DNA of 64,000 bases, from the NCBI GenBank assembly GCA_964106915.2, contig OZ066914.1; one strand, 5' to 3'. The DNA comes from Podarcis gaigeae (lineage: Eukaryota). The notes under the pieces are model-generated. The model was not told where the DNA came from. It made no database searches and saw nothing but the letters and a program-made list of their open reading frames with translations. The first letter of the stretch is position 1. Each line of letters begins with the position of its first letter. Position numbers and translations under genes: made by a program. This document shows positions 16,701 to 53,200 of this stretch, one piece after another.

Positions 16701-19233
16701 TACCAAAGAGTGGGTTAGTCAAATATTTCCCTTATATTCAGCATGGTTTGATTAATTTTTATGCTATCTGTCACATTTTCGTTTTTTTCTCTTGAAGCTT
16801 CCTGATTTTGCTTTTCCTTAAATGAGAAAGTTCAATACATTTGTCTCTGATAGTATGTGATGCTCTAATCAGTTACATTAAAAATGAATATTTTAATATA
16901 TCTTTATATATAATATAACATACTCACTATGGCTGAGATGTAAACAACATAGACACCAGTTCAGATTTCACCTAGGCTATAAGCTCAGTCACTAGGTAAT
17001 ATTAGGTAAGCCACACTTTTTCAGTGTAAACACCTATCTACAATCTTTGCGATAAAGACCTGTCAAGTAGGATTATTAGCAAGTTTACTGTGCTAATACA
17101 TAAAGCATTTTGAACACACTATAAGCACTATATGAATGATAAGTATTACTTGAATGCTCAGGCAAAATTTATTTCACTGAAAGTGAACAGTGTAAAATAC
17201 ACTCAAGACATTCTAAGACCATAAATGAAATGTTCTCAGTTCAGTTTGGACACACTGCTATTGTAAATTGTAATTAAAGTTAAGCATGGATTTAGCATGT
17301 TATGCTGCCTGTCCATCTGACTCATAATCAGTGCATGTTACAACTATCTCTGTCAACTCAGCACACAACACTTAAGAGAGCTCTTACAGATCTCTTGGCC
17401 AAGACTGGGAATGCCCAGTTCCAGAGCAGGAAGGTATCTCTCTAGATACCTCAACATTTGCCCAAATCAACCCAAAAATCTGTGTGCAAATACCAGTGAA
17501 ACCTACCTTTTCTCACATGTATGAGATAAGAGTTTTGATATTTGGGCAAGGTGTTATTGCAATTCAGAGGGCATGGTGGTTGACATGGGTGTACTTACTG
17601 GAAAGCGGGGAGAGGGTTATTTTGTCAGAAAACTGACCTACCCAACTGCTACAGTGTTGAGCGCTTTTCCTCTTCTGTGATGTCTGACAGGGGTGCCTCC
17701 GAGGGCTCACTCAAGGGATTCCACCGACTCGGTAGATGGCCGAGCCACTCCGACAGAGAATGCTGTGCCGCCGCCACGCATTGAGAAGCCTCCTGTGTTG
17801 CCTTTCTTCAACCGCCCTCCTTCTGCGCTTCCTCTCATGGGGCTGCCACCTCCACCCATACCACCCCCTCCTCTTTCCTCAAGCTTTGGGGTTCCCCCTC
17901 CCCCTCCAGGAATCCACTACCAACACCTCATGCCCCCTCCCCCTCGACTTCCTCCACACCTCACTGTGCCACCTCCTGGGGCCGTGCCACCTGCGCTGCA
18001 CCTTAACCCAGCCTTCTTCCCCCCACCCAATGCAGCAATGGGGCCCCCGCCAGACACCTATAACAAGACCTCTGCAGCATACAACCACAGCAGGTGAGAG
18101 CAAGCCCATTCCCGGGAATCTGAGAAGAAAAAAAATCAAAACTAAGCAGTGCAAAGAACAGTAGCTAAGCCTCTTGTTTAGCAAGGCTGCAGACCTAATT
18201 CTCCAAGGGCTTAGTTATTTTGTTTTTATGCAAAGAGTGATGGTTCGACTAGACATGAAACCACCTTCTCGTTGGTGGTAGAAAATGCCTTGCATAGCTC
18301 TAGGGCACGACAGCTGACAACTTGGTTCTTAAAGGATGCTACTTAATGTCTGCTTTGGGGAGGAGGGCAGTACCTGGTCAACCACACATTGCTGTTTTGA
18401 AAGGCCTTGAATTGCCATGTCTATGAATAAGGAACTGTGTCATAGTTCTGCTTGAAGCTGTTTATCCTATGTGTGTGATGGGTGTGTGTTTGTTTCTACA
18501 GCCGGGAACTGGGCCCTTTGCCACCTCCTGTCAGTGAAGCTGAATTTGAAGATATCATGAACAGGAATCGAGCAATTTCCAGCAGTGCCATTTCCAAAGC
18601 TGTGTCTGGTGCCAGTGCAGGTAACCAGAGCTGGCTTTTGCTACCTCTTTCCATTTCTCGCTCCTGGCCTCATTCTTACCATGCCGCCTTTGCTCTGTTA
18701 TATTGCAGGGGACTACAGCGATGCCATTGAGACCCTGCTCACAGCCATTGCTGTGATTAAACAGTCACGTGTCGCAAATGATGAGCGGTGTAGAGTCCTT
18801 ATCTCTTCACTCAAGGATTGTCTTCATGGCATTGAAGCCAAGTCTTACAGCATGGGCACCAGCAGCAGCTCCTCCAGGTGAGCTTCAGGCACAGTTATTG
18901 CCAAGTCATCCAGCTACTGTCACTGATTTTGCTGATGAGCAAGTCTCAGTTGGGCTCTGGTCCGCTTCCTGGGCTTTGTACAGCCAGGTAGGAATAAGTG
19001 CTTTTGGTAGGGGAAAGGGTCTTGTTACAGCTTGCCAGTAACTAGATACCTCATTGTTTTCCAGAAAACGGCACCGGTCTCGGGATAGATCACCCAGTCG
19101 GTCTCGTGAGAGCAGCAGGAGGCACCGAGACGTCGTCCATAATGAAGATCGGCATGAAGACTATTTCCAGGAAAGAAGCCGGGAGCATGAGCGACATAGA
19201 GACAGGGACAGAGAAAGAGACCGACATCACTGA
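1723..19233 (+). CDS. CPSF7: Cleavage and polyadenylation specificity factor 7 (CFIm59), 460 aa, 8 coding exons
   Basis: Exons 1723..1776 ([18 protein letters not shown]), 10987..11205, 12126..12229, 13483..13628 (RRM: [15 protein letters not shown]...[17 protein letters not shown]), 17691..18093 (Pro-rich), 18502..18620, 18709..18877 and 19065..19233 (RS/RD-rich, TGA). All introns are GT-AG and phase-consistent; total 1383 nt. Confidence 0.97.
2865..3060 (+). mobile_element. Decayed L2-type LINE ORF2 fragment
   Basis: Translates to [15 protein letters not shown]...[14 protein letters not shown], resembling the region after the RT domain of L2/CR1-clade ORF2. Confidence 0.65.
4873..5151. mobile_element. 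PIF/Harbinger-like MITE
   Basis: Terminal inverted repeats GGTCACATTCA...TGAATGTGACC, flanked by TTA on both sides (4870..4872 and 5152..5154). Confidence 0.65.
8882..9118. mobile_element. Tc1/mariner-pogo-type MITE
   Basis: TIR CAGTGGTACCTCGCA...TGCGAGGTACCGCTG with TA on both flanks; internal repeated TCGTCTTGC units. Confidence 0.8.
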
Positions 19234-23473: not shown

Positions 23474-23481
23474 AGATAGAT

Positions 23482-23527
<46 letters not shown>
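23474..23527. repeat. (AGAT)n microsatellite
   Basis: Read directly; lies between the CPSF7 3' end and the fascin-like gene. Confidence 0.95.
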
Positions 23528-23528
<1 letters not shown>

Positions 23529-24341
23529 GACAGGTGCCATATTTTGGCTGGGTAGTAGCCCTTGTACAGCCATGGTTTTATGTATTGCTAAACTAGTTCC
23601 AAACCCACTTTATGTACACAGATTAAAATGATTTTTTAAAAGCTTCTATCTCTCAGTCATCTCCATTTAAAAGGGAGTGTCTGGTAGCAAGCCAAGGAAA
23701 GATTTGAGATCCTTGAGAATTTCTGCCAGTGTGAAATCAGTACACTTAATGAAGATTCGATGCTCAGCATCATTTTAAGTAGCTCCTTTAAAAAATATTT
23801 GCTCTGGAAAACATGAACAGAAATCACAGGTTTCATAAAAAGGGATAGGCATTATGCTGAACAGAGATGGGGAAATGAAGCCACGGTGCAAACAGATGAA
23901 ACTCAAACCCTTTGAAAGGGGATTGTGCCTTTCACGTGAAATTGAGTATTACAGGCAAGGATGCAAGGAAATATAATAGCGTATAAGGGCTTTCTGTCTA
24001 TGGCAGGAAAAGGTTCAGTTACAAGAATATTGTCCTGATTGCTAGTGGTATTCAGTGAAATGTTTCTGGGGCTCATAGGCTTGCCCAGATGGTTTGTGTT
24101 TCACCTTCCTGAAGGTTTGTCATACAAGGGTATTTGCCTGTGAGTGGCGGGTGAGGTGGTAGTACTTTCAGAATGCAGCTTGAGTGGTGAACAGTCTGTG
24201 GGAGGGGCTTAATGCTGAGTGGGTGGGTTTACCTGGTTGCTAGGTGATGATTGTGATCTAAGGGACCAGGATTAATCTCAAGTGAGCCCAGATAACTGGT
24301 CTGATGAATGGGTACCATTCAAGTCTCTTGTTATTCTCACC

Positions 24342-25810
24342 ATGACATACTCACTAGAATTTGGCCTTGTTAATGCGGCCAACCGGTACCTGACTGCTGA
24401 ACCTTTCCGTTTCCAGGTGGCAGCCACAGGCAAGCAACTGAAGCCTCGCCAGTTGTGGGTACTGCAGTTTGTGAGTCCACAGGGAGCTGGGGCAGCTGGC
24501 CCAGGAGAAGGGGCTGGCCAAAAGCTTCACCTGATCAGTGCACTGAAACGCTACTTGGCGGCTGACGCAAATGGAAAAGTCACCTGTGACCAGGACAAAC
24601 CAGGGCCTCAGACCTTCTTTCTCTTGCATCAGTATCCAGATGGCAAGGTGCTGTCTCTCACCCAGGCACAAGCATCCTATCTCTCAAGTGTAGCTTATGT
24701 CCGATATTATTGGGCTGGAATTCTGGACAAAGAGGGTTGGGTGTGGTTGGGTGGGTGAGACGGAGGGCAGAAGGTAGGAAAACAATGCTTAAAGTTGCCT
24801 CAATAAGGCCTCAAAACTATTCCGCTATTGCCCAAATGTGGGCCTCTTGTTTTGCTTACAAATGTTTTTTTACAATTAAGAGGCAGAAATGAGGGCAGGA
24901 TTGAGCTTGAGTTGCAGACTAGTTTGCTGTGGTGAGAAGCAGGGTCTTTTCTTAGTGTGCAAGTTTTTAGATTCTTACGGGTAAGTCCAGGCAGCAGATT
25001 CCTGTAAAGTGCATCAGGAAGAGTGTAAAATGTCCCTGGACTTCCCCCACCACCCCCCATGGTCTCCTTGGGAAGCCAGTCACATGAGCCAAAGCTCTTT
25101 GCCCCTGTCGGCCAAACAGTATGATAGTCAGCCACTATGGGCTGAAGGGGAGAGAATGTGTTTGAATAGCTTATTTGAGTCCCTGTGCCTGGTGGATCCT
25201 TCAAGGTGCCCTAGCCACTTCCCATCCACAACTGGAAACAACTGTTGCACAATGGAACTTGGGTGATCATGGCAACTCCATAAGCCAAAAGGTGTAACAT
25301 AATTGGTGTGATGATACCTGAATTTTATTCTGCCGTGTTCTTTGCTCTCATTGAGAGTGTTCCTGCTTTTCTTGTCTTGGGCAATGTAGCTGACCAGACA
25401 TCCTTCCCTCCCTGCAGGTGTCCTTTCAAAATGAACAGTCCAAGCGCTACCTGGGTGGAGCAGAGGAGAACGTCACTTGCTTTGCCCAGGCTGCCACCGA
25501 AACTGAAAAATGGACCCTCCACCTGGCTGTGCACCCCAATGTTGCCATGTACAACCCCAACAGGAAGCGTTATGTGCGGTGTGATGATAAAACTGGGGTG
25601 CTGCGCTGTGACCGTGACATGCCCTGGGGAGCTGAATCAGTCATCACTATATACTATGATTTCAGAGGTGGGTGGTGGCATTTTCCTATTTTGCTTTCAA
25701 TTGATACGTGCATTTTTCTCTCTAATACTGTAACACACATCTCCCACCCCCCCTTTGTTGGGGGAGCGTGTTAAAGAAGCAAAATATTCTGCTGTAGGGT
25801 TACACACACA

Positions 25811-25857
<47 letters not shown>

Positions 25858-28800
25858 TCCTGTTGAAGATGAGGACTTATAGCTACCATACTAACAAGAA
25901 AGTTGCTTCTTCTGAACTAAGGATTGTTTAAAGTTTTCTGTTATCCTCCCCAACTATGGAGCAGACACCTGGGGTAAGTCTGAACACCTGGAAAGACTTG
26001 AGAAATTTGAGAGATGGAGAAAGTCTGTACCGGTCAGAGGCTTTCTCCTCCCACAGTGAGAAAGTTGCTACTTTATTCTACAGATGTTTGTCTGCTTGTG
26101 ATTTTACCTGTACATGAGGATTTCTAAGTGCTACAGGTGGGTGGGGTGGCCTGGGAAGGCAGTAAGTGCTTCTAAGTGGAAGGTCTTAATTCAAAAAGTT
26201 TGAGTGACACTGCCTTATTTACACATCTCTATCCAAAAGCCACCCAAGCACCTTCTAAGATAGTCCTCTGTTATTGATGTGTGAAAAAGTTCAGTTTGAG
26301 TCATTTGCATCTCCTCCAATAGGTCTGGAGTCCAATGGTGAGAGAAGGCAATTTTCCCCATACATACCAGGTGAATTCAAATTCTGTTTACCCAAGAAGT
26401 CACTGTGGCTGGCAGGAATTTTGATTTCCTTAACATCATTAATTAGCTTGGGTAATTCTTAGAACTACTAATTGCCCTATGCAAGACTTTCTGGTAAGTT
26501 AGACACCAGTGCAAACTTTCCAAATAAGACAAGAAAGGGAATTGTCTGTACAGAGAAGTTTCCAAGTGCAAATCCTCTTTCCTGACCGTATTGATGTTGG
26601 AGGTTCCCCACTCTCTCACACACACTTTTAAGTGAAATTGCACACTGGGCTAAAGAATCTAATACAACCAGTTTTTAAAACACACATGTAGTGTGGATAA
26701 AGGTGTGTATTAGTGCAGATGAGAACATGACTTCAATCCCAATCTCAGCCTGCATGTGCCCATGGCACATCTCACTATACCTGGGTTGGGGCAATGGCCT
26801 CTAGCTTTATCAAGCACACACGTAAACCCCCAAAGTAACTATGCAAGAAAAATAGGGTGTAATCTACGAGGAAACAAATGCAGTGTCAGCACCGCCAACG
26901 CTGTACAAAGCTGAGACCCAATGAACGTCAACTTGCCTATCAGAACAAAGCACAGGGGGCTGTTTACACACATGTACAAATGATATATGAGATTCTGGGC
27001 AAGGGAATTACAATGGGAAATGTTAAGGGCGAACAGGACTAGGGTACTCTAAAGGGTTGGTGTTTGGAACTGCAGGCAGGGTGGGCCTGTGTGGCAATTC
27101 TGCAGTGAAACAAGCATCAACTCTGATGCTACTTTGTAAGACAATTGATTTGGAGATTGTTTTCCAGGACTAAACATCAAGCTGCTGTCAACCTCTCATT
27201 TCTCTCGCCTTTGTCTCCAGCAAAGAAGTATGGATTGAGGAATGGGGCTGGCAAGCTGTTGGCTTCCAATGGCTCACTGGTGCCAGATGTTACCCCACAA
27301 ACGTTGTACTCCCTGGAGGTGCATGGCGGCTTGGTCGCTCTGCGGGATGAGGAGGGAAAGTACTTGACTGGGCGAGAGGGTAGCATGAGAACCGTAAAGA
27401 TGGACAAACCTGGACGGGAGGAACTCTTCAGCATGGAATCCAGCCCTGCCCAGGTCTCTATGCGCTCTTCTTCTACTAACAAGTTCATTTGCTGCAGGCC
27501 AGGTAAGTCAGGAGAAAACAGCACTATCTATATTGCATTGCACTTTGTGAAGCCTCTGAAGCTGATTGGCTGTTCCTGTCTGATGAGATAGAATGTTTGT
27601 GACCATTCCACCTGCTCAGAAAATGAGGCACAGTGGTAGTCCACATTCTGCAAGCAATGGGGCAGTTGTCAGTTTGGTTGGGTAAAACTGAGATAAGACT
27701 GACTCAGGAGGCAGGGTGAAGGCTGGGAGGAGTTCTTAGAAGGTAGGTAAGCTTAGATGCTGGGACCTCAGAGGCAAGATGGATGAAGAGAGGGTGCAGA
27801 AGTAAGAAGCAGGAAAAGTGCACATACAATTGAAGTAGCAAGGATCCAGTAAGATTACGGTCCCTGAAAAACCCCACAGCATTTCTTATTAAAAGTGGTG
27901 TGACAGAAGTTCTAGGGAAGCTTGCACGTGACGTTTTGTGCTCTTAAACCAGCCTGCTCCAAAGATAAAGATAGGAAGGTTCAAATGATCCTAGGTCAGC
28001 TGACACACAGACAATGCCCCCATTCTCTGCACGATGTTTTCCTCTTTCAATCCACAAAACACTGATTTTAGCCTGCAAGGATTGGGCAATGGCATATGTA
28101 GGAATGCTGACCTAGGGTGTTTCTTCCCTGCCCCCTGCAGGTGCTGATCTCTATGCCAATGCTATGGCTGTTGGCAACACAGAGATCTTCCAGGTGCTGT
28201 TTGATGACACCACAAAGAAGGTCTGCTTCCGTAGCCACAGCGGCGCATATATGTCCTTGGTGAGTGTGCCTGCCACGCGTTACGAGGAACAGCAGTGATC
28301 AGGCAGGACCTAACTATGTTTCCTAACTACGGAGGACGGCAGCTCGTAGGTGGTAGAGCACCTGCTTTGCATGCAGAAAGCCCCAAGCTTTTTTCAGCCA
28401 CAGCCACTCATTCCAGTCTTGTCCCCAACCTCCTTCCGACTATATTCTACAATGGGCAACACTGAGACTAAGGAGGGAGGAAGCTGACAGGCAGTCCCAC
28501 CCCACGACTGGTTGTGAGAATGTGGGGACTGATCAAGGGCAGATTGAGGATGGTGGGGCAGGGCCCCTTTTGCCCAAGTGGATCAGCCTCCACTGGATAC
28601 ATCTGTGCCCAGATTGTGGTGCACCAACTTAATCTGGAATTATTTTAAATGTGAGCAAGGAGGTGGGTGAGCTGCATCCTCGACACGTGGCTGCGAGCAT
28701 TCACAAAAATTGTGGCCTGGTTCAAAAAACAAAACAACTTAAGCTTGAAACTTGATGTAGTAGAGGCTTTGCCACCTCAGGTGTTCACCAGCTCTCCCCA

Positions 28801-31800
28801 GATGAAGAAGATATATCTGCGCCGTGTGTGTATTAATACAGAAAGGCAGGCTGCAAATCAAGAGGATAATAATATAGCAAGCAGGGAACTGATAAAAGGA
28901 GGCTTGTTAAATAGCAGTAGATAGCTCTTGGTCCTGGACTTGTTTGTTAATGTTAGTAAGGACTGTCTTAGTCCTTTTCCAAAACATTTTTGTCAACTTT
29001 AGTGCAGGTGGGGGGAGTTACTCTATTCTACAAAGCAAAGCAGGGCATTATACACAATCCTCCTTGTGAAAAAGTGGGAAAAAAATATTGTACACTGAGG
29101 ATGGAGAACCTGTGGCTCTCGAGTTGTTGTACTCAAATGCCTATCGTCCTTGATCATTGGCTGGCAGTTATTACTCCAACATCTTCAGGGCCTCAGGTTT
29201 CTCATCCCTGCCACAGATGAAATATGTAAGAGTTCAGTAGGAATGCACAACTTCCTGAACAACCTCTTAACCTCTTAAGAGAAAGCTAACAGCTTAAGCC
29301 TGGAGGGCTGGAGACATCTTTTTCAGGTCTGCTATTCACTTACCTGGGAGTAAAACTTACTTATAAGTAGAGTTGAAGGTGATCTTCTGGCTGCATTGTT
29401 GTTCATGGTGTGCACATACACTATCTGCTATGGACCATGGTCAGAAATTTTACAGATTTTTGTTGTGCTTCAAAACTTATACTGTCTACATCTAACATAC
29501 CATTTAGAAATATTAATAGTTTGGCTTCAGTCTGGGCTATGGTTCACATAGTGCAACTTGAAGTGTGAAGTCAACAATAAAGTGGCTTTGAATAAAGCCA
29601 AGGTCCACCACCATCCCTATCTTGCTGATGCTAGAAACCCTCCACTTTTGGAGGTAACTACTGCTGGATGTGGGTGGCGCTGTGGGTTAAACCACAGAGC
29701 CTAGGACTTGCTGATCAGAAGGTCGGCGGTTCGAATCCCCACGATGGGGTGAGCTCCCGTTGCTCGGTCCCTGCTCCTGCCAACCTAGCAGTTCAAAAGC
29801 ATGTCAAAGTGCAAGTAGATAAATAGGTACCGTTCCGGCGGGAAGGTAAACGGCGTTTCCGTGCACTGCTCTGGTTCGCCAGAAGCGGCTTAGTCATGCT
29901 GGCCACATGACCCGGAAGCTGTACGCCGGCTCCCTTGGCCAATAAAGCGAGATGAGCGCCACAAACCCAGAGTCTGTCATGACTGGACCTAATGGTCAGG
30001 GGTCCCTTTACCTTTACTGCTGGACTAACCTCCCTGGTATTGAGATGCTCATGCATTGCTGTACTCTTGTGTTGTATCACCCACCACAATGGGATTCTCA
30101 GTCTTGATGCAGCACACAATACCTTCCACTGAAAATATATCAACATGGATCTCAGAACGTAGCTGATAAAGGGACTGCAGCAGGAGGTTTCTATCAGACA
30201 AAGTAAGCCGAAAGCACAAAAAGCACTTTCCAACGAATGCATCCTGTCTTTTGCAGGGTCCTAATGACTGTATTAACAGCAACACTAAACAGGACAGGAA
30301 TGTCTGGTTCGACATCCAGTACCAAGACCAAAAGGTGTGTCTCCGCATAGCAGACAAGCAAGTGTCCATGCGGCCCAATGGACAGCTCCTGGCAATTCCC
30401 AAAGCTGCAGGTACAAGTTGGTAGAGAGCTTCTCTTACAAGCACCAGGGCATCAGTGTGGACAGGTGAAGACAGCTAGGGTGGGAAGAGAGACTGCACAC
30501 TGCCAGCTGCAAATTAGCTTTAGGTAGTTCTAGGGGAAAGGAATGGAAGCGACAGCCTTGCCCTAAGTCCCTAGATAGCCCTCTAGAGGAATAATGTGGG
30601 GAAAGTGTATGCACAGAAACCAGGCTGTCCCTGGATATAAAATTGGAACATGGGGAGCCAACCTTAAGCTCATCCCATGAAATGGCTTTTTAGACACCTC
30701 AAGGGCTTCTTGTTGGAAACCTGCAACCAAAACTTTCATAATCTTGCTCCTGCAAGATGGAATGAGTTCTGTTTACACTCCCTTCCTTACACTTTGGAGT
30801 AGCTAACATCACTACAAATACAGCCTAGATGAAAGAGAAAAAAACACCCTAAGACTCACTAAAACACTGCCCCTCTGTGCATATAATCCTGGCCCCCAGA
30901 ACTGCATACCAAGTAGGTTGACACTGCTTCTGTAATATGATCTGGGAAGCAGTCAGAGAATGAGTTCCAGTTTGGGGAGAACCACCACCAGAAATAGCTG
31001 TGCAGTTGTTGTCCATAGTGGTTACTTGAATGAACTTTGGGGCAAATGCCACTGACAGTAGAAATCGAGATAAAACCCAAGGGAAGAACAGTATTTGAAG
31101 TCCAAGCCATTAAAAGCTTTCTGTGCCATAAACAGCACCTTGAATCAAGTCGGAAAGACTAGAGGGAGACATTGTGAATTCTGGGCCCCTGTTACAACAC
31201 TCAGCCTGGCTTCTCAGTGTGGGGCGATTTCTCCTGATCTTTAGCACTGAGGTTGACTTTCCCTGGGGAGCTGATTCCCTCTTGAGAGCAAAAGGAAGGG
31301 TGGCAAAATAGTTCTCTTTGAAAGCCAGGTGCGGCCAATGCAAAAGGTTTCCCTTGTACCTTCAGGGAAGAGTGAAGATTTCCTGCTGGTGCTGGTGAAC
31401 CGGCCACTGCTTGTCCTGCACAGTGATGCCGGCTACGTGGGTCTGTGTTCTGACATGAGGAAGTTGGAAGGGAACTGCGTCAGCTATGTTGCCAGCAGCC
31501 TGTCGCTCACCGAGGAAGGCTACTACAACTTCCAAGTTGGTTAGTATGTTTCCAGGTGGGACTAAGTATATTCCAAGGGGTTGGGGTCTCCTAGTATCTG
31601 TGTTGCGAGAGAAACATGACCTACTCGTAAATGGGAGCTGCCATCAAAGGATTTTTATAAAAACAAGCCTAGTTTATACGTAGCCATAAGAGGGAGCCAA
31701 AACTTGCTTTCCCAAACCAAAACAATGCAAGAGAGCGCATCATCACTATTTTCCCCCCTTTGCCATTTGTTTTGCTCCATGACCCCTGGACAATAGTTTC

Positions 31801-32328
31801 CTAGGCCCAATTGAGGATAAACTACTGTTCAGGTTGGATGGCCATCTGTCATGGTTGATTTAGCTGTGATTCCTGTGTTGCAGGGCGTTGGACTAGATGA
31901 CCCCCAGGGTCCCTTCCAACTCTATTATTCTAGGTGTCGGTCATGTTTTCACTTTATACATGGTTTCTTTCTAAACCATACCTAGTATTGCCATGACAAG
32001 CACATCCTAATTACCTGTCATTCTTTTACCTTGTAAAAGTCGGAGAGATCCAAGAGCTGGTCTTGCCACGCCTCTACCTTCCCTGACCCTCACCCTTCCT
32101 TCCACTAATTCTGCCACTTGACTTGCAGGCAGCAAGTACTGGGCTCTGGATAACGATGGACAGATCTTGGTAAACAGTGACCGTCCCAGCAATTTCACCA
32201 TCCAGTTTGCATCCTCCAGCTGCCTGATCATCAAAGCACCCAACAACAAGTTTTTTGTGGCTGAGCAAGGAGGCCGACTATGGGCAGGGGCTTCAGACGC
32301 ATCTGGAGCAACACTGTTCCATTTCTGA
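24342..32328 (+). CDS. Fascin-family actin-bundling protein (divergent fascin-like, 494 aa, 7 coding exons)
   Basis: Exons 24342..24647, 25418..25667, 27221..27502, 28141..28259, 30257..30410, 31366..31539 and 32129..32328 total 1485 nt, with no internal stop and six GT-AG introns in matching phases (0,1,1,0,1,1). Fascin motifs: FGLVNAANRYLTAEPF, RYLAADANGKVTC, RYLGGAEENVTCFAQ, EKWTLHLAVHPNV, RKRY, DRDMPWG, LRDEEGKYL, GREELF, DLYAN, LVNRPLLVL, ATLFHF-stop. Kozak caccATG with an in-frame upstream stop at 24273; AATAAA at 32355. Confidence 0.93.
25802..25852. repeat. (AC)n microsatellite
   Basis: Read directly; fascin-like intron 2. Confidence 0.95.
29666..30016 (+). mobile_element. Full-length Sauria-type SINE in fascin-like intron 4
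   Basis: tRNA-like head (GGTGGCGCTGTGGGTTAAA...GGTTCGAATCCC) and (ACCTTT) tail GGTCCCTTTACCTTTA. Flanking direct repeat TACTGCTGGA at 29659..29668 and 30015..30024. Confidence 0.88.
31830..31932 (+). mobile_element. CR1 LINE 3' end fragment
   Basis: GTTGGACTAGATGACCCCCAGGGTCCCTTCCAACTCTATTATTCT is a typical CR1 3' terminus. Confidence 0.7.
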
Positions 32329-32354: not shown

Positions 32355-32360
32355 AATAAA
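32355..32360 (+). terminator. Poly(A) signal of the fascin-like gene
   Basis: AATAAA 27 nt after the TGA, followed by a U/GU-rich tract (ctttttctgtgtgg). Confidence 0.7.
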
Positions 32361-33363
32361 CTTTTTCTGTGTGGGCTTACTTCATGCTTATCTCAACTAA
32401 TGCCCAATTGGCCCATGTGTTAGACCTCTTGGAAATGACCCTTCCTCCGTAGATCCTCCCTCACACAGGGCATACTTGAACTCTAAATGAAAGCTCTGCT
32501 ACCTACAGCAGACCCAAGCCAGGACCCTTTCATGTGAATTTCCTTACGCAAAAACTTTCTGTGCCTATGAGGTCCCTTCTGAACTGCCTTCATGCAGCTA
32601 GGATGATTTGCAAAGCCTCAGTTATCTTAAAGATGTGTACCTCTCTTCAGCCCAAGAGGGGTCCCCATGCTTCTAGGAGCACTGTTGTTCTCCCAGCGTA
32701 CCAATGTTTGTCTGAAGCTCCACATAGCTACAGTAGTTTAAAAATAAATATTTATTCCAAGGATGCAGTAGAAAACCAAGTATCACAAATTATCATTACA
32801 CACCAATAACAACACTGATTTGGGGGGAAGCGGCACAAGGCCTGCTGCCCTTATCCCTACCCCCATTCAGGAGGAGGGCACAGGAGGTAACACAACAATT
32901 AGGGAGGATGAGCAAGACTGCCCTCCTGAGTCACTGCACACATGCTAGAGTCTTGAGTTGTTAGAATGTACCACGCTGGGGAATTCAGAGGACACACCAG
33001 CTGCAGGCAAAGTCTGATTATTAGGTGGCATTCACTGGCCCATAGTCTTTTGACTTGCGAGAGTCAATTACCCAAGGTACAATGTTGGAATGGATCAATC
33101 GCCGCCCTCCAGGAGGATTGCAAGCTTAGTTAGGGTGGGTGGGTTTGTCATCTCATGAAAACTGTTTCCAGACACTGGAGACCCTGCTAATGGTGCTCTA
33201 CCTGAATGAGCTTGAAATGAGAAGTTGAGCCGCCTTCTTTCAGCTTATTGGGGGAATTGGACCCACACCTCATCTTGTTCCAGCCACAGAAATGGAGGGT
33301 TCATGCAGCCTCTCTCCAATCTGAAGAGCACACGGTTCCATACATTGCAGCCCACAAAGGTTC

Positions 33364-41600: not shown

Positions 41601-44600
41601 GGGTTAGCAGAGTCTGTAACCTGAAGCGTATGTAACGTGAAGCGTATGTAACCTGAGGTACCACTGTACATTACATTGAAAAGATGTGAAGACAGCATGA
41701 AGGTGAAATGTTCTGGTGCATTAAGCAACAATAGAAACCAGGAAATTGGGCGGTGGGGGGGATCTGAAGGAGGAGCTGTTGCCTACACAGCTTCCAAATC
41801 ATAAGAAGTGCCAGTAAACCAAGTCAAGCAAATGGTAATAACCACTCAACTTACACATAATCACATGTACACAACAAGCTTGTCCTCAGTAAAAACCATA
41901 AGAGGGCAACTGTGATGCAGGATGCAATACATTAACTTAGGGTGCTTTGTGTGATTTGCTATCACATGAATACAGTATTAACAAAACGTACAATAGACCA
42001 CTTAAATGACAGCTTAGGCAATTATTGCAAGGCCAATCATTTTTCATGGATCTCAGACACAGATATCTAAAAAGAATAAATTAATGTGAGCAGAAGTCAG
42101 TGTAATAAGATGTCCAAAGAAAACAAGAATAATGGAGCACACTGTAAATGATGCTCATCAAGAACAAAAGAAAAGTGTGCTTGTTCAAAAAGATCTTAGA
42201 AAAAGAAGTGATTGGTATGTATGCAAGAAGTCCAGGGTGTGATGGTGAAGAACAAAGGACAGCTGAGAAAAACAGAACTGCCCAAAGGGGAAAACAAACA
42301 CTGGTCAAAGAAGACTGTAAGGCCTCCTGTATCCAGCTAACCATCTCAATAGGAAATTCTAGCTGTATACTGACAAGATTCTGAAAGGTTGAAAGGTGAA
42401 TTAGCATGCCAAGCCACAATAATATATTGCATTATAACAGCTGCAACAGCTAGGACCCCTTCCAGTTTATCCTGTTTCATCAGACGAGCTTTTAAATGTC
42501 TTAAATAAAGGCAGCCCTCTTTAGGGAAGTTTTTAACGTCTAATGCTGTATTGTTTTTAATATTCAGTTGGAAGCCGCCCAGAGTGGCTGGGGAAACCCA
42601 ACCAGATGGGCGGGGTATAAATAATAAATTATTATTATTATTATTAAATACTATTTGGTTTATCTAATCCAACTCCTTCCCAGGTCTTTATTCCTGGGAA
42701 CTCCTCAGCCAATTCAATGAGGCAGCTACTGTTCTACAAATTCTGCACACATTATTTATCACACAGAAGTTGGTACAAAAACCTGAGCTTCTTTTAAAAA
42801 TATAACAGGTGTTGAAACAAATTTGGAAATCCACAGGTGGTGTTTGCAAGGGATTCCTAGGGTTCAATAGAGAGCACTTCTATCTCTTCCACAGCTACCT
42901 GTCCTAACCTAACCTGTTAGTTTCTTCTATTCATCCCTGCTCTTGCACAACATTTCTTCCATTTACCATACTGCTTTTTTGTTACATCCAGACCTCCATA
43001 TTTAAAAACTACACAGTGCTAAACCTGGGGGGAGCATAAAATAAAGTTTGTTTCAACGTGTGTTTTCTTTGCTTGCACAATTACTCCTATATTCAGAATT
43101 TGGGCTTCCTTGATAACCAGTATAAGCAATCCTCTCCTGCCTTACCATGACCCAGATGTGGAAGGATATGCTCAAACCAAGGTATGTTGCTGACAAGACA
43201 ATGGTCCCTTTAAATTTCTGGAACAGAAGATTAACCAGGCCAGCCTGGAAGACGAAGGTATTGAAGAACATGAGGAAGATGATGATGACATTGAAGAGGA
43301 TGGCAATATCCTGAATGCTGTAAGACAGGCAAACATTTTAATGAGACAGAGATTGATAGATACCTTATACACAGAGGTGTACCTAGGTTCCCTTGCATCC
43401 TTGGCAAGGAGCTATATATCATCACACACACATCCTGGTCCCTTGCACAATTGCATTTCTCCACCAAAGCACCCACAGGAGCCTGCATGCTTTGCCCAGC
43501 CACCCATAATATTGAAAGAGCGGCCCGGCCCAGGGAGCACACGAACAGGCGAGCAAGTTCCTAGCCACTCCAAGCCAGAGTGGAGAGGCACAATTTTTGT
43601 GCACACACTCCAGGCCTGCACCCTTCGCAGGGGCTCACCTAACCAACTCCTAGGTATGCCCCTGCTTGTGGCTCTCCAAATACTACTGGACACCAGCTCC
43701 CCACCACCACCCATGGTCAGAGATAATGGGAGTTGTGGTCCAGCAACTTTTGGAGGGCCACAACAAAAAGCACATTAACATAGCTGCAGAAATTTTCACT
43801 GTCCATGCTGCCAACTGAGACATTAGTCCACCAATTGCAGAGGAAAGGGAACCCCGAAACCCTTGTTAGAAGATTACAATGGAAATAATACCTGCTGCAG
43901 CTACCTCTATTTCCCCCCTGCTTATCACTCATTCTCATAATCTGGGGGTAGAACTTTATGTAATGGCAATTGAGCTAATAGCTGCTAATACCCACAGAGA
44001 AAATATAGAATGAATGGATTATAATAGCACCACCCTTTTAAAAATATCATTCAACAAAATATAGCCTATTAACTGCCGATGTTTCAGGAGTAGGGAAAGA
44101 ATAATAATTTTCTTGGTATCTTTTATTCTACTTCATTGCTCCATTCGTCTCTTCTCTGGCACTCTCTTCTTTCCATTTTCCTGAATGAGAGTGTCCCAAG
44201 AAGAGTAGAAACAAACAGAAAGGGCATTCCTGTGCATGTTTACTCAAAAAAGTTCCACTGTGTTCAATGTGGCAAATTCTCTGTAATCCTAAGCACATTT
44301 ACTATGGATCAAGTCCTCTTGTATACATAAAGGCTTAAGCTGCAATTCTATGCACACTTACACAACAGTAAGCATGACTGAAAACAATGGGACTTCCTTC
44401 AGAGTCCACATAATATATAAGATTGCACTGGTGCTCCTGAGTAGACATACTAACCATCTCTTCTCTATTCCAAATCACTTACCGTACTCAAGCACTAGTC
44501 TACAGTTCTATCCAAGGACCTGACGAGTAACCACATTTTTGATCCCTACAGCTTATTTAAGAGCTCATAGCACTGTTGAGCAACTTTTCAGAGACAAATG

Positions 44601-50228: not shown

Positions 50229-53200
50229 ATGATTCCCAGAGTCTCATTCTTGCTGCTCTCAATCCTACTGGGAATTCTGGGGATTTTGTGTGTGGTGTTC
50301 ACAGTCTACTGGACCCAACACTGGCTTGGTGGCTTTGCCTGGGATGGTTCTTCTCAGATGTTTAACTGGCATCCAGTTTTCATGGTGACAGGCATGTTGG
50401 TCTTGACTGGTGCAGGTAAGTGAAAAGAGGATCTAATCCTTTTCTGATTTCCCCTCCTCCTGCCCCAGTGGCAGAACTGATATTAACATCCTATACAGTG
50501 GTATCTCAGGTTAAGAACTTAATTTGTTCTGGAGGTCCGTTTTTAGCCTGAAACTGTTCTTAACCTGAAGGACCACTTTAGCTAGTGGGGCCTCCCGCTG
50601 CCACCGCACAATTTCTGTTCTCATCCTGAAGCAAAGTTCTTAACCCAAGGTACTCTTTCTGGGTTAGCTGAGTCTGTACCCTGAAGCACCTGTAACCTGA
50701 GGTACCGCTGTATCCTTTTAAGTGTGTTTGTGAGGGGGGGTGTATTTTATTATGTATCTTGTGTTTTTATCTTGTGTTTTTTCATGCTGTGAACCACCCT
50801 GAGATCATTGGCTGAAGGCCAGTATACAAAACAAGCAAACCTGGGAATCAGTGACTTGGCTATTTTGGGGGGATGTGGGTGCCTGAGCTATCTTGGCTCT
50901 AGTGACTTCTCCCCCTCTCTCTCCTCCAGCGGTTCTAGTGTATCGTGTGCCCCTCTCTTGGTCGGGGCCCAAGCTGCCATGGAAGCTGCTGCATGCAGGA
51001 CTGACCTTGGCAGCATTCATCCTAATTGTCCTGGGACTGGTGGCTGTCTTTGAATATCACAACAAACAGGGCATTGCCAACATGTACTCCCTCCACAGCT
51101 GGCTAGGGCTTGGTGCTGTGCTGCTCTTCTCCTGTCAGGTGGGTAAGAACCTAAGAAGCTGTAGCTTGGTGGCAGAGCACATACTTTGCATCGGGTGTGG
51201 GGAACATTCACCCTCCAGATGTTGCTGAACTACACTTCTCATCATCCCTGAGTATTGGCCATGCTTGCTAGGGCAAATGGGAGTTGCTGCGCTGCAACAT
51301 CTGAGGGCCAAATATCCCCCACCCCTGCTTTATATGCAGAGGGTACTTGGTTCAGTCCCAGTCACTTTTATGTAGGGTTGGAGCAGGGGGAAACCTGTCT
51401 GAAACCACTGCTTTTAGTGTTCAGAAGGGATACACAAACTTCAGGTTTGTTGGATCTACTTTGGGTTTTTTTATTCACAAGAATCCCAAGAGCTACCAAC
51501 CAGGGCTAGGTGCAAAAGACATATTTGGAATTAAATAAGGTGGTTGCCTCCTAGCACAAGCTCCGCCCATGAAACCCAGTACTGGGAAAGTTGCCATTTA
51601 TAGATCTAACCTCCTTGAATTCATCGTAATACTTCTAAAAGCAAAGTATTTTGGCGGGCTGTCACCAGTGCTTTTTTTCTGGGGGGACACAGGTGTACGC
51701 ATATCCCTAAACATTTTGTGAATTTAATTTTGGCCTCATTGGCAGTATTTCAATATGAATAGGAAAATGAGAGTACTCCTAAACATTTTTTTTAAAAAGA
51801 AAAAAAGCACTATCTGTCACCCACATTGCATAGCAGATATACTTTTGTCTTAAATCTGCTGCCTGACACATCTTGTATTTTGTGAGAGTGAATAATTTGT
51901 TGTAGCCACCCTTTTCATAAGTATTAGGTTTCCTCCCTCTTGGGTAATCCCCCCCCACTTAATCCCTTCACCATGTGCACATGTGTTATTAAAAGTTTGT
52001 TTCCAATATTTTATTTATTTTATTTAAAAAGTTATCTGTGCAAGTGCAGTAAATATTTGAAAAAAACTAACCTAAATTGCTCACTGGTTGCTGTCTATCT
52101 CCCCGCCCCCCAAGCTCTCATAGCTAGTTTGAGATTTTAGATCATAAATATAATAAAACAAATACTTCTGCAAATCTGGATGCTGCATTACTTGTGCTCT
52201 GTCCCTGTGCAGATACCATGCTGAGCCCTTCCTCCAATATGGGTTTCTGAAAAGATCCCAATTTCTTATTTCTTCCATCCAGTGGGCCATGGGCTTTGCT
52301 TCTTTCTTGCTGCCTTGGGCTCCCACCTGGTTCCGAGCCTTGTACAAGCCTGTCCATGTTTTCTTTGGCTCTGCCATCATCCCTTTAGTTGTGGCTGCCT
52401 GCATCTCGGGCATCAATGAGAAGCTTTTCTTCAAACTGTGAGTAGCAAAACAGAGAGGGCTTGATAGTGGGAGGAGGAAATAGTCCACGCTAAAAAGACA
52501 ATGGAGAGTATGTTGCTGGTTATTTACACTGGAGAGAGGTGGCAGTCTTCTGGGGTACAGATAATGAGGGATGAAGAGGAAGCTGCTCAGCCTGGTCCGG
52601 ATCGATAGCAGTCATTATAAAGTTTGAAAGCAATGATAGCTTTTAGACCAGGAATAAGGAAGATATAGTTCAGCAACATTTCGAAGGCCACTGGTTCCCC
52701 ATCCCTGTTTTAGAAGTACAGAAGGGAAATGTGTCCACGAGGCAGTGGGGAACCTGAGAAGGCGGTTAAGCCACATGTAGCAGCAGCAGACAGGAATGCA
52801 GAGCTAGTGTCTGGAGGCTTATAAGATGTGCTCCAGCCTTGAACCCAAATGCATTACTTGGGTGTCTGGGACAGTAGAATGGCTGTTGGAGCAAAGCTAC
52901 ATATGGTGAAAGAGATTACGTGGCTTAGTATAGATTGTTGGCACTATCCAGATATTTCCTTCTTTATGGGTCTCTGGGGAGGTGTTTGTGGTGCTATTGG
53001 CTTTTCATCAAGCATTTTTGCTTTTTGTCTGTACTTTTAGAACAAACACAACCACACCCTACGCTCAGCTTCCTGCAGAGGCATGGTTTGCCAACATATT
53101 GGGGATGCTGATCCTGGTCTTTGGGCTACTGGTGCTGTTTGCCCTTGCCATGCCAATATGGAAGCGTCCAGATGTGAATTCGCAAGATACCCAAGAGGTG

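What the first reader, a model, noticed from the sequence alone, without database searches (positions are those of the whole stretch)
24435..24437. Fascin-like protein lacks the PKC switch serine (S39 -> Q32)
Human FSCN1 reads NASASS39LKKKQIW; this gene reads AATGKQ32LKPRQLW (codon CAA). S39 phosphorylation by PKC turns off bundling, and the serine is conserved to Drosophila Singed S52. Here the serine is gone and the basic PKC context is broken by a proline. Inference: a fascin uncoupled from PKC control, suited to a stable actin bundle, or one with a changed function.
Basis: partly seen in the sequence, partly recalled or inferred. Interest (0 to 1): 0.7.

Follow-up and report, generated by a model that had tools for sequence, protein, structure and literature searches.

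The report
A fourth vertebrate fascin gene
This lizard gene is a spliced, conserved fourth fascin, separate from the three textbook vertebrate fascins and shared with sharks, a frog, turtles and alligators; it lacks the serine that switches human fascin off, so it likely bundles actin filaments without that switch.

Summary
Codon 32 (24435-24437) is CAA, Gln; it aligns without gaps to human fascin-1 Ser39, and 23 of 23 squamate records carry Gln there. The comparison, however, is between paralogues. This genome holds FSCN1- and FSCN2-type genes and a true FSCN3 elsewhere, all with the serine. The window gene is a fourth, intact 7-exon fascin (494 aa; all six introns spliced in one run) between CPSF7 and TMEM216, where human and cattle gene lists show no fascin. 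It forms its own clade (100/100) with shark, chimaera, frog, turtle and alligator proteins; no mammal, bird or teleost member turned up. RefSeq labels it only 'fascin-like'. Ser39 loss alone is unremarkable: 12 of 34 mammalian FSCN3 records keep it. The basic patch is not broken (K31, K34, R36), and Thr29-Gly-Lys is a possible substitute site. Most tested actin-contact residues survive, better than in FSCN3, but R398 is lost and the second regulatory serine (S274) is Cys. Likely an actin bundler outside Ser39 control; untested. The unnamed ancient paralogue matters more than the single residue.

The parts
24342..24647 (+). Coding exon 1 (ATG; residues 1-102; most of beta-trefoil 1)
   Evidence: Pfam Fascin 39.3 bits; PDB fascin E 7e-18; GT donor, joint 24645>25416 in run X2
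24435..24437 (+). Codon 32, CAA, Gln at the position of human fascin-1 Ser39
24426..24434 (+). Thr29-Gly30-Lys31: Thr at the S36 position, a minimal [ST]-x-[RK] pattern; possible substitute kinase site
   Evidence: T in 22 of 22 squamate rows; full pattern in 11 of 14 full-length squamate sequences; pattern recalled; untested
24474..24518 (+). Gly/Ala-rich loop (about residues 45-59) longer than in fascin-1, seen in reptiles but not in the frog or shark proteins
   Evidence: alignments; pLDDT under 50 at 48-56 in the model of an orthologue
25418..25667 (+). Coding exon 2 (keeps R151-K152-R153 = human R149-K150-R151, and D169 = D168)
26323..26370 (+). Optional 48-nt in-frame exon (16 residues) in beta-trefoil 2
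   Evidence: AG/GT ends; downstream joint 26366>27217 in run X2; matching inserts in Lacerta, Python, Erythrolamprus and Eublepharis records
27221..27502 (+). Coding exon 3
   Evidence: Pfam Fascin 37.3 bits; joints in X2
27490..27492 (+). Cys276 (TGC) at the position of human Ser274, the second regulatory serine
28141..28259 (+). Coding exon 4; its phase-0 donor matches an FSCN3 intron position, not the FSCN1/2 one
30257..30410 (+). Coding exon 5
31366..31539 (+). Coding exon 6 (Cys398 and Ser399 where human has R398, K399)
32129..32328 (+). Coding exon 7 with TGA stop; protein 494 aa
32355..32360 (+). AATAAA, candidate polyadenylation signal 27 bases after the stop
   Evidence: sequence; use not shown
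18479..18878 (+). Context: late exons of the upstream neighbour, CPSF6/7 family (CPSF7 by gene order)
   Evidence: Pfam RSLD_CPSF6; gene order in PMC11905691, PMC12699549
34392..35773 (-). Context: downstream neighbour, Transmemb_17 family (TMEM216 by gene order), followed by TMEM138 (43056-43337, -) and a cytochrome b561 gene (50887-52438, +)
   Evidence: Pfam; gene order

Best explanation
The gene is an intact, spliced fourth vertebrate fascin, distinct from FSCN1, FSCN2 and FSCN3, whose four-trefoil protein likely cross-links actin filaments and, having Gln in place of Ser39, likely cannot be switched off at that site. Shown: gene structure, splicing, four separate fascin loci in one genome, own clade back to cartilaginous fishes, Gln fixed in squamates, Val in turtles and alligator, Ser in the frog and one shark group. 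Inferred: neutral Gln could keep the contact that S39 makes with actin's acidic N-terminus while K31 adds charge; E27, F29, K41, K43, R149-R151 and K358 equivalents are kept or conservatively changed, so both actin-binding faces likely work; control would then rest on tissue-restricted expression and the optional exon rather than on S39.
For: Four loci: C26 and C2, C21 (86-100% to Podarcis fascin-3 and between a GRIP-domain and a PAX gene, the block reported for FSCN3 in PMC3759438) and this one. Identity of the window protein to the genome's own FSCN1/2/3: 35.4, 34.9, 25.4%. Clade 100/100 in the careful tree of 28 rows and 100 in the quick tree of 65 rows. All six introns joined at GT..AG in run X2; 7 of 8 coding differences that I took from that table are silent; 83-87% identity to gecko and python orthologues against 75% for FSCN3. 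Model of an orthologue: pLDDT 86.8, TM 0.82-0.88 to human fascin. Of the four residues other than S39 that PMC12086090 calls essential or critical at beta-trefoils 1 and 2 (F29, E27, K43, R149; passage) all are kept or conservative: F22, E20, R36, R151. S39A keeps or enhances bundling (PMC3352952, PMC3082522 passages).
Against: R398, called essential in PMC12086090, is Cys here and is Arg or Lys in no member of the clade; lizard FSCN2 has His there, so it is not strictly needed. S274 is Cys in 19 of 22 squamate rows, and S274A reduced binding and bundling of human fascin (PMC3352952). K42, K74, R217, K399 and K471 are also not basic. T29-G-K31 could take over as a kinase site. The deep spliced contig of X2 begins at 24479, downstream of codon 32; codon 32 is covered only by an unspliced contig of depth 4 in X1. 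No biochemistry exists for any member.
Confidence: 0.6

Rival explanations
1. It is the same fourth paralogue, but a poor bundler or a one-sided actin binder with a changed job (for example at bundle tips, or as a scaffold); S39 was lost because there is little bundling left to switch off.
For: R398 lost in the whole clade, S274 to Cys in tetrapods, K42 to Pro, K471 to Val; S274A/S289A fascin works at filopodial tips without bundling (PMC3352952 passages); long internal branches to reptiles and squamates (0.20, 0.29) and a new conserved loop fit a shift of function.
Against: The basic residues of both faces are kept far better than in FSCN3, which has lost K22, K41, R149, R151 and K358 equivalents; Cys is close to Ser in shape; a conserved basic residue appears at human position 403 next to the lost R398.
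Confidence: 0.25
2. Kinase control was moved, not lost: Thr29 in the same loop, or the Ser-Pro of the optional exon, would act as the phospho-switch.
For: T at the S36 position in 22 of 22 squamate, 5 of 5 turtle/alligator and 10 of 11 cartilaginous-fish rows; T-G-K pattern in 11 of 14 full-length squamates; the optional exon carries Arg-Arg-Gln-Phe-Ser/Thr-Pro in lacertid and python records.
Against: Geckos have Leu at position 31 and turtles Ser or Leu, so the pattern is not clade-wide; position 36 is Ser in 23 of 23 FSCN1/2 rows and often Ser/Thr/Asn elsewhere, which fits a structural role; 12 such patterns occur in the protein, as short patterns do by chance; the gecko form of the exon lacks the serine.
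Confidence: 0.13
3. It is a moved FSCN3 orthologue or a decaying copy of FSCN1.
For: Seven coding exons; one intron position shared with FSCN3 only; one Callorhinchus record of the clade is named fascin-3.
Against: A true FSCN3 sits on C21 in its known block; catsharks, coelacanth, Pelodiscus, Alligator and Podarcis each have records in both groups (the coelacanth piece placed by best hit only); the frame is intact, spliced and conserved.
Confidence: 0.02

Closest known systems
Fascin-1 (FSCN1) and fascin-2 (FSCN2)
   Same: Four beta-trefoil fold (TM 0.82-0.88 to human fascin); E27, F29, K41, R149-K150-R151, D168, K247, K353 kept; three intron positions shared (the last one within one alignment column).
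   Different: About 35% identity; S39 to Gln, S274 to Cys, R398 to Cys, K42 to Pro; two extra introns (after residues 102 and 185) and a phase-0 intron at 319 in place of the phase-2 intron at 328; different locus; optional exon and Gly/Ala loop.
Fascin-3 (FSCN3, testis fascin)
   Same: Divergent vertebrate fascin; shares the phase-0 intron at the column of FSCN1 residue 315; S39 also unstable (Gly in 18 of 34 mammalian records); sister group in the quick tree (95) but only 70/86 in the careful tree.
   Different: 25% identity; separate gene on another contig in the GCC1-FSCN3-PAX4 block; FSCN3 has lost most basic actin-contact residues that this protein keeps; FSCN3 survives in mammals.
RefSeq/UniRef 'fascin-like' records of reptiles, Ascaphus, Latimeria and cartilaginous fishes (e.g. 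XP_028593030.2, XP_041052783.1)
   Same: These are the gene and its orthologues: 99.8% identity to the Podarcis record P0318.
   Different: They carry only automatic names (fascin, fascin-like, once fascin-3 or 'fascin 1 L homolog'); none names a separate subfamily.
Drosophila Singed
   Same: S52 is the S39 equivalent (PMC3352952 passage).
   Different: Singed keeps both serines, though S52 phosphorylation matters in bristles and not in macrophages or oogenesis (same passage); no Singed sequence was aligned here.

Membership tests
Fascin family | Fascin (PF06268) domains | tested here: met
   Two exon frames over the curated cut-off, two below it, two without a hit (6 tested); whole orthologue E 2.5e-94 to PDB fascin over residues 4-509
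Fascin family | Four tandem beta-trefoils in one chain of about 490 residues | tested here: met
   494 aa; model of Hemicordylus orthologue matches fascin over about 500 columns, TM 0.82-0.88; a prediction, not a solved structure
Fascin family | Residues of the two actin-binding sites | tested here: inconclusive
   E27, F29, K43(R), R149 kept; R398 lost
Fascin family | F-actin bundling activity | not testable with these tools
   needs co-sedimentation and EM
FSCN1/FSCN2 subfamily | Ser39 PKC site | tested here: not met
   Gln32; Ser in 23 of 23 FSCN1/2-type rows
FSCN1/FSCN2 subfamily | Falls in the FSCN1 or FSCN2 clade; five-exon structure | tested here: not met
   separate clade; seven exons against five; both genes present elsewhere in the genome
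FSCN3 subfamily | Falls in the FSCN3 clade | tested here: not met
   FSCN3 100/100 without it; 29% over one exon against 44-68% for C21
FSCN3 subfamily | GCC1-ARF5-FSCN3-PAX4 neighbourhood | tested here: not met
   window neighbours are CPSF7, TMEM216, TMEM138, cytochrome b561; GRIP and PAX genes flank the C21 copy
FSCN3 subfamily | Testis-specific expression | not testable with these tools
   runs are coded and carry no tissue

The most novel reading that the evidence does not exclude
Jawed vertebrates began with a fourth fascin, still unnamed, that mammals, birds and teleosts lost; in reptiles it shed both regulatory serines (S39, S274), gained a new loop and an optional exon, and serves as a constitutive cross-linker for a stable, tissue-specific actin structure that mammals no longer build.
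Probability: 0.35. Interest if true: 0.7.

Novelty: new variant of a known kind. Interest (0 to 1): 0.5.

Why it matters
Papers state that vertebrates generally have three fascin genes (PMC3082522, passage) and that S39 inhibits all fascins (PMC10046292, passage). A fourth, deeply conserved paralogue without S39 and S274 corrects both statements and gives a natural test of what these serines and R398 are needed for: its substitutions can be read against the fascin-actin cryo-EM map and assayed directly. Fascin-1 is a drug target in metastasis, so a natural variant of its actin faces is useful. If the gene proves tissue-restricted it may also mark an actin structure peculiar to non-mammalian vertebrates. 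The single S-to-Q change by itself is of modest interest, since many fascins lack it.

Tried and rejected
FSCN3 orthology: rejected. T29 as the true S39 column: rejected by ungapped alignment. Pseudogene: rejected. My greedy splice script chose a wrong last intron, corrected from the RNA joint, and a wrong FSCN3 intron 2, better fitted as GC-AG, phase 1. The Pfam search of the genome missed the FSCN3 locus; a protein query found it. The careful 65-row tree did not finish; a 28-row careful tree did, and it lowers FSCN3+clade sisterhood to 70/86 and does not resolve which shark group is the reptile orthologue (frog grouped with sharks at 89/89, against the species tree); no AU test was run. Run search: no RNA holder on record; that is no evidence either way. 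Only 4 of 24 listed runs were laid, so no control against neighbouring genes exists; the depth gap between X2 (200-640) and X1, X5, X6 (under 10) is contig depth and only a weak hint of tissue restriction; the hole upstream of 24479 in X2 may come from the tool's filter. No complex prediction was sent (filament partner, unsuited). Yang 2013, Jansen 2011 and Sedeh 2010 are not held, so the list of critical residues comes second-hand from PMC12086090; residues beyond those passages were chosen from PDB mutant titles, PMC10046292 or recall. PMC9280682 and PMC11870622 passages gave nothing. Earlier-findings look-ups were empty.

Full report
1. Observation. The ATG lies at 24342 and codon 32 (24435-24437) is CAA. 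Exon 1 aligns to human fascin-1 without a gap from residue 4 to 41, so Q32 sits on S39 and T29 on S36. All 23 squamate records among the 26 hits have Gln there (segments; 18 named species, some with several records).

2. The gene. Seven coding exons (24342-24647, 25418-25667, 27221-27502, 28141-28259, 30257-30410, 31366-31539, 32129-32328) give 494 residues without a stop, 99.8% identical to a Podarcis 'fascin-like' record, so the window is from a lacertid lizard (inference). Of 4 runs laid (of 24 listed; RNA is the tool's guess), X2 joins all six introns at GT..AG at contig depth 213-510 and also the downstream joint of an optional 48-base exon (26323-26370) at 71; X5 and X6 show one and two joints at depth about 3, X1 none among those listed. 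X2's deep contig starts at 24479, so it does not itself cover codon 32. Seven of the eight coding differences that I took (its table is cut) are silent. A model of the Hemicordylus orthologue has pLDDT 86.8 and matches human fascin at TM 0.82-0.88.

3. It is not FSCN1, 2 or 3. The genome holds an FSCN1-type gene on C26 and an FSCN2-type gene on C2, both with Ser39, and a third on C21 that is 86-100% identical per exon to Podarcis fascin-3, keeps the serine and lies between a GRIP-domain gene and a PAX gene, the GCC1-ARF5-FSCN3-PAX4 block of PMC3759438 (passage). The window protein is 35.4, 34.9 and 25.4% identical to these. Its neighbours are a CPSF6/7 gene, a Transmemb_17 gene, TMEM138 and a cytochrome b561 gene (6 of 149 frames had these hits, plus 1 more Transmemb_17 frame counted among them). 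Gene lists for cattle BTA29 and human 11q12 run CYB561A3, TMEM138, TMEM216, CPSF7 with no fascin between (PMC11905691, PMC12699549; passages); my names CPSF7, TMEM216 and CYB561A3 rest on that order.

4. Range and age. A search with the alligator protein returned 42 hits: squamates, turtles, alligator, the frog Ascaphus, sharks, rays and chimaera, then one teleost fascin-1 type and one unnamed distant protein. A profile search of 1.84 billion representatives added a second shark group and a partial coelacanth record (the latter placed by best hit only). These form one clade, 100/100 in the careful tree of 28 rows and 100 in the quick tree of 65 rows; FSCN3 forms another, with its own catshark, coelacanth, turtle, alligator and lizard members. 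So the clade predates the split of cartilaginous and bony fishes (inference). No mammal, bird or teleost member appeared or among the top 150; both searches have limits (word filter, 7991 candidates scored; 50% clusters), so loss is likely, not proven. Sisterhood with FSCN3 has 95 in the quick tree, 70/86 in the careful one, and one shared intron position that FSCN1/2 lack: suggestive only.

5. How special is the missing serine? At the S39 column: FSCN1/2-type Ser 23 of 23; lampreys 3 of 3; this clade Gln 22 of 22 squamate rows, Val 5 of 5 turtle/alligator rows (three turtle records without this region left out), Ser in the frog, Ile 5 and Thr 1 of 6 in shark group A, Ser 5 of 5 in group B; mammalian FSCN3 Ser 12, Gly 18, Thr 2, Cys 2 of 34; other FSCN3 Ser 9 of 17; 43 further representatives (five named invertebrates, the rest unnamed, alignment less sure) Ser 18. 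The switch is thus a fixed trait of FSCN1/2 and was lost several times elsewhere, at least twice in this clade if Ser is ancestral (inference). Rarer is the change at S274: Ser/Thr in 42 of 43 representatives, 22 of 22 FSCN1/2 rows with a letter and 34 of 34 mammalian FSCN3, but Cys in 19 of 22 squamate rows, 3 of 5 turtle/alligator rows and the frog.

6. Mechanism. In the cryo-EM structure S39 may hydrogen-bond actin E4 and its phosphate would repel actin's acidic N-terminus; F29, E27, K43, R149 and R398 are called critical (PMC12086090, abstract and passages of one section). The lizard protein has F22, E20, R36, R151, and keeps or conservatively changes K22, K41, R100, R109, K150, R151, D168, K247, K250, R271, K353 and K358; it loses K42, K74, R217, R398, K399 and K471. 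FSCN3 has lost far more. A neutral Gln cannot be phosphorylated and does not mimic phosphate, and S39A stays active (PMC3352952, PMC3082522; passages). I therefore judge it most likely a bundler outside S39 control (0.6). Against: R398 is gone and S274A weakens human fascin, which favours a changed job (0.25); T29-G-K31 or the optional exon could carry a moved switch (0.13). None of this is tested.

7. Known or new. Papers say vertebrates generally have three fascin genes (PMC3082522, passage) and that S39 inhibits all fascins (PMC10046292, passages). Seven searches for an earlier description (listings only: 1 of 1, 6 of 6, 25 of 20,338, 25 of 841, 40 of 45, 20 of 537, 15 of 19) showed none; 'fascin-4', 'fscn4' and 'fourth fascin' had no occurrence in the 15 listed. 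Subscription papers, three key fascin papers, supplements and gene-tree databases were not seen and may already note the clade. The genes are annotated automatically as 'fascin-like'.

8. Verdict. Real observation, partly right reading. The residue change is a property of an old, unnamed fascin paralogue, which is the better finding: a new variant of a known kind, interest 0.5.

Noticed in passing
window 26323-26370 (+): Optional 16-residue exon in beta-trefoil 2, kept in lacertid, python, colubroid and gecko records; carries Arg-Arg-x-x-Ser/Thr-Pro in lacertids and python.
   Followed up: partly
window 24474-24518 (+): Gly/Ala-rich loop, predicted disordered yet nearly invariant across squamates and present in alligator and turtles, absent in frog and sharks.
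   Followed up: partly
window 24479: The deep spliced contig of run X2 begins here, inside exon 1 and downstream of codon 32; filter artefact or a shorter transcript cannot be told apart.
   Followed up: no
proteins P0211/P0105 and P0213/P0316: In two catsharks the second group of this clade and the fascin-3-like gene are recorded on contigs of the same length, so probably the same chromosome; sharks hold two copies of the clade.
   Followed up: no
G000:C21:701919-708804 (L033): Lizard FSCN3; its second intron fits best as GC-AG. No ARF5 match was seen in C21:680001-740000 although ARF5 lies in this block in other vertebrates.
   Followed up: partly
proteins P0195-P0250: Mammalian FSCN3 often has Gly, Thr or Cys at the S39 position (22 of 34 records), against the review statement that S39 inhibits all fascins.
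   Followed up: partly
window 29666-30017 and 31868-31924: Interspersed repeats in introns 4 and 6 that draw very many contigs from other places; SINE-like by guess.
   Followed up: no
window 32355-32900: The X2 contig runs past the first AATAAA to the end of the stretch laid, toward the convergent TMEM216-type gene; overlapping 3' ends are possible.
   Followed up: no
window about 23480-23530 and 25800-25852: (GATA)n and (CA)n microsatellites upstream of the gene and in intron 2.
   Followed up: no
proteins P0028-P0031, P0033, P0025: Several turtle records of this gene are truncated or have odd ends; mis-annotation or decay in some turtles was not told apart.
   Followed up: no
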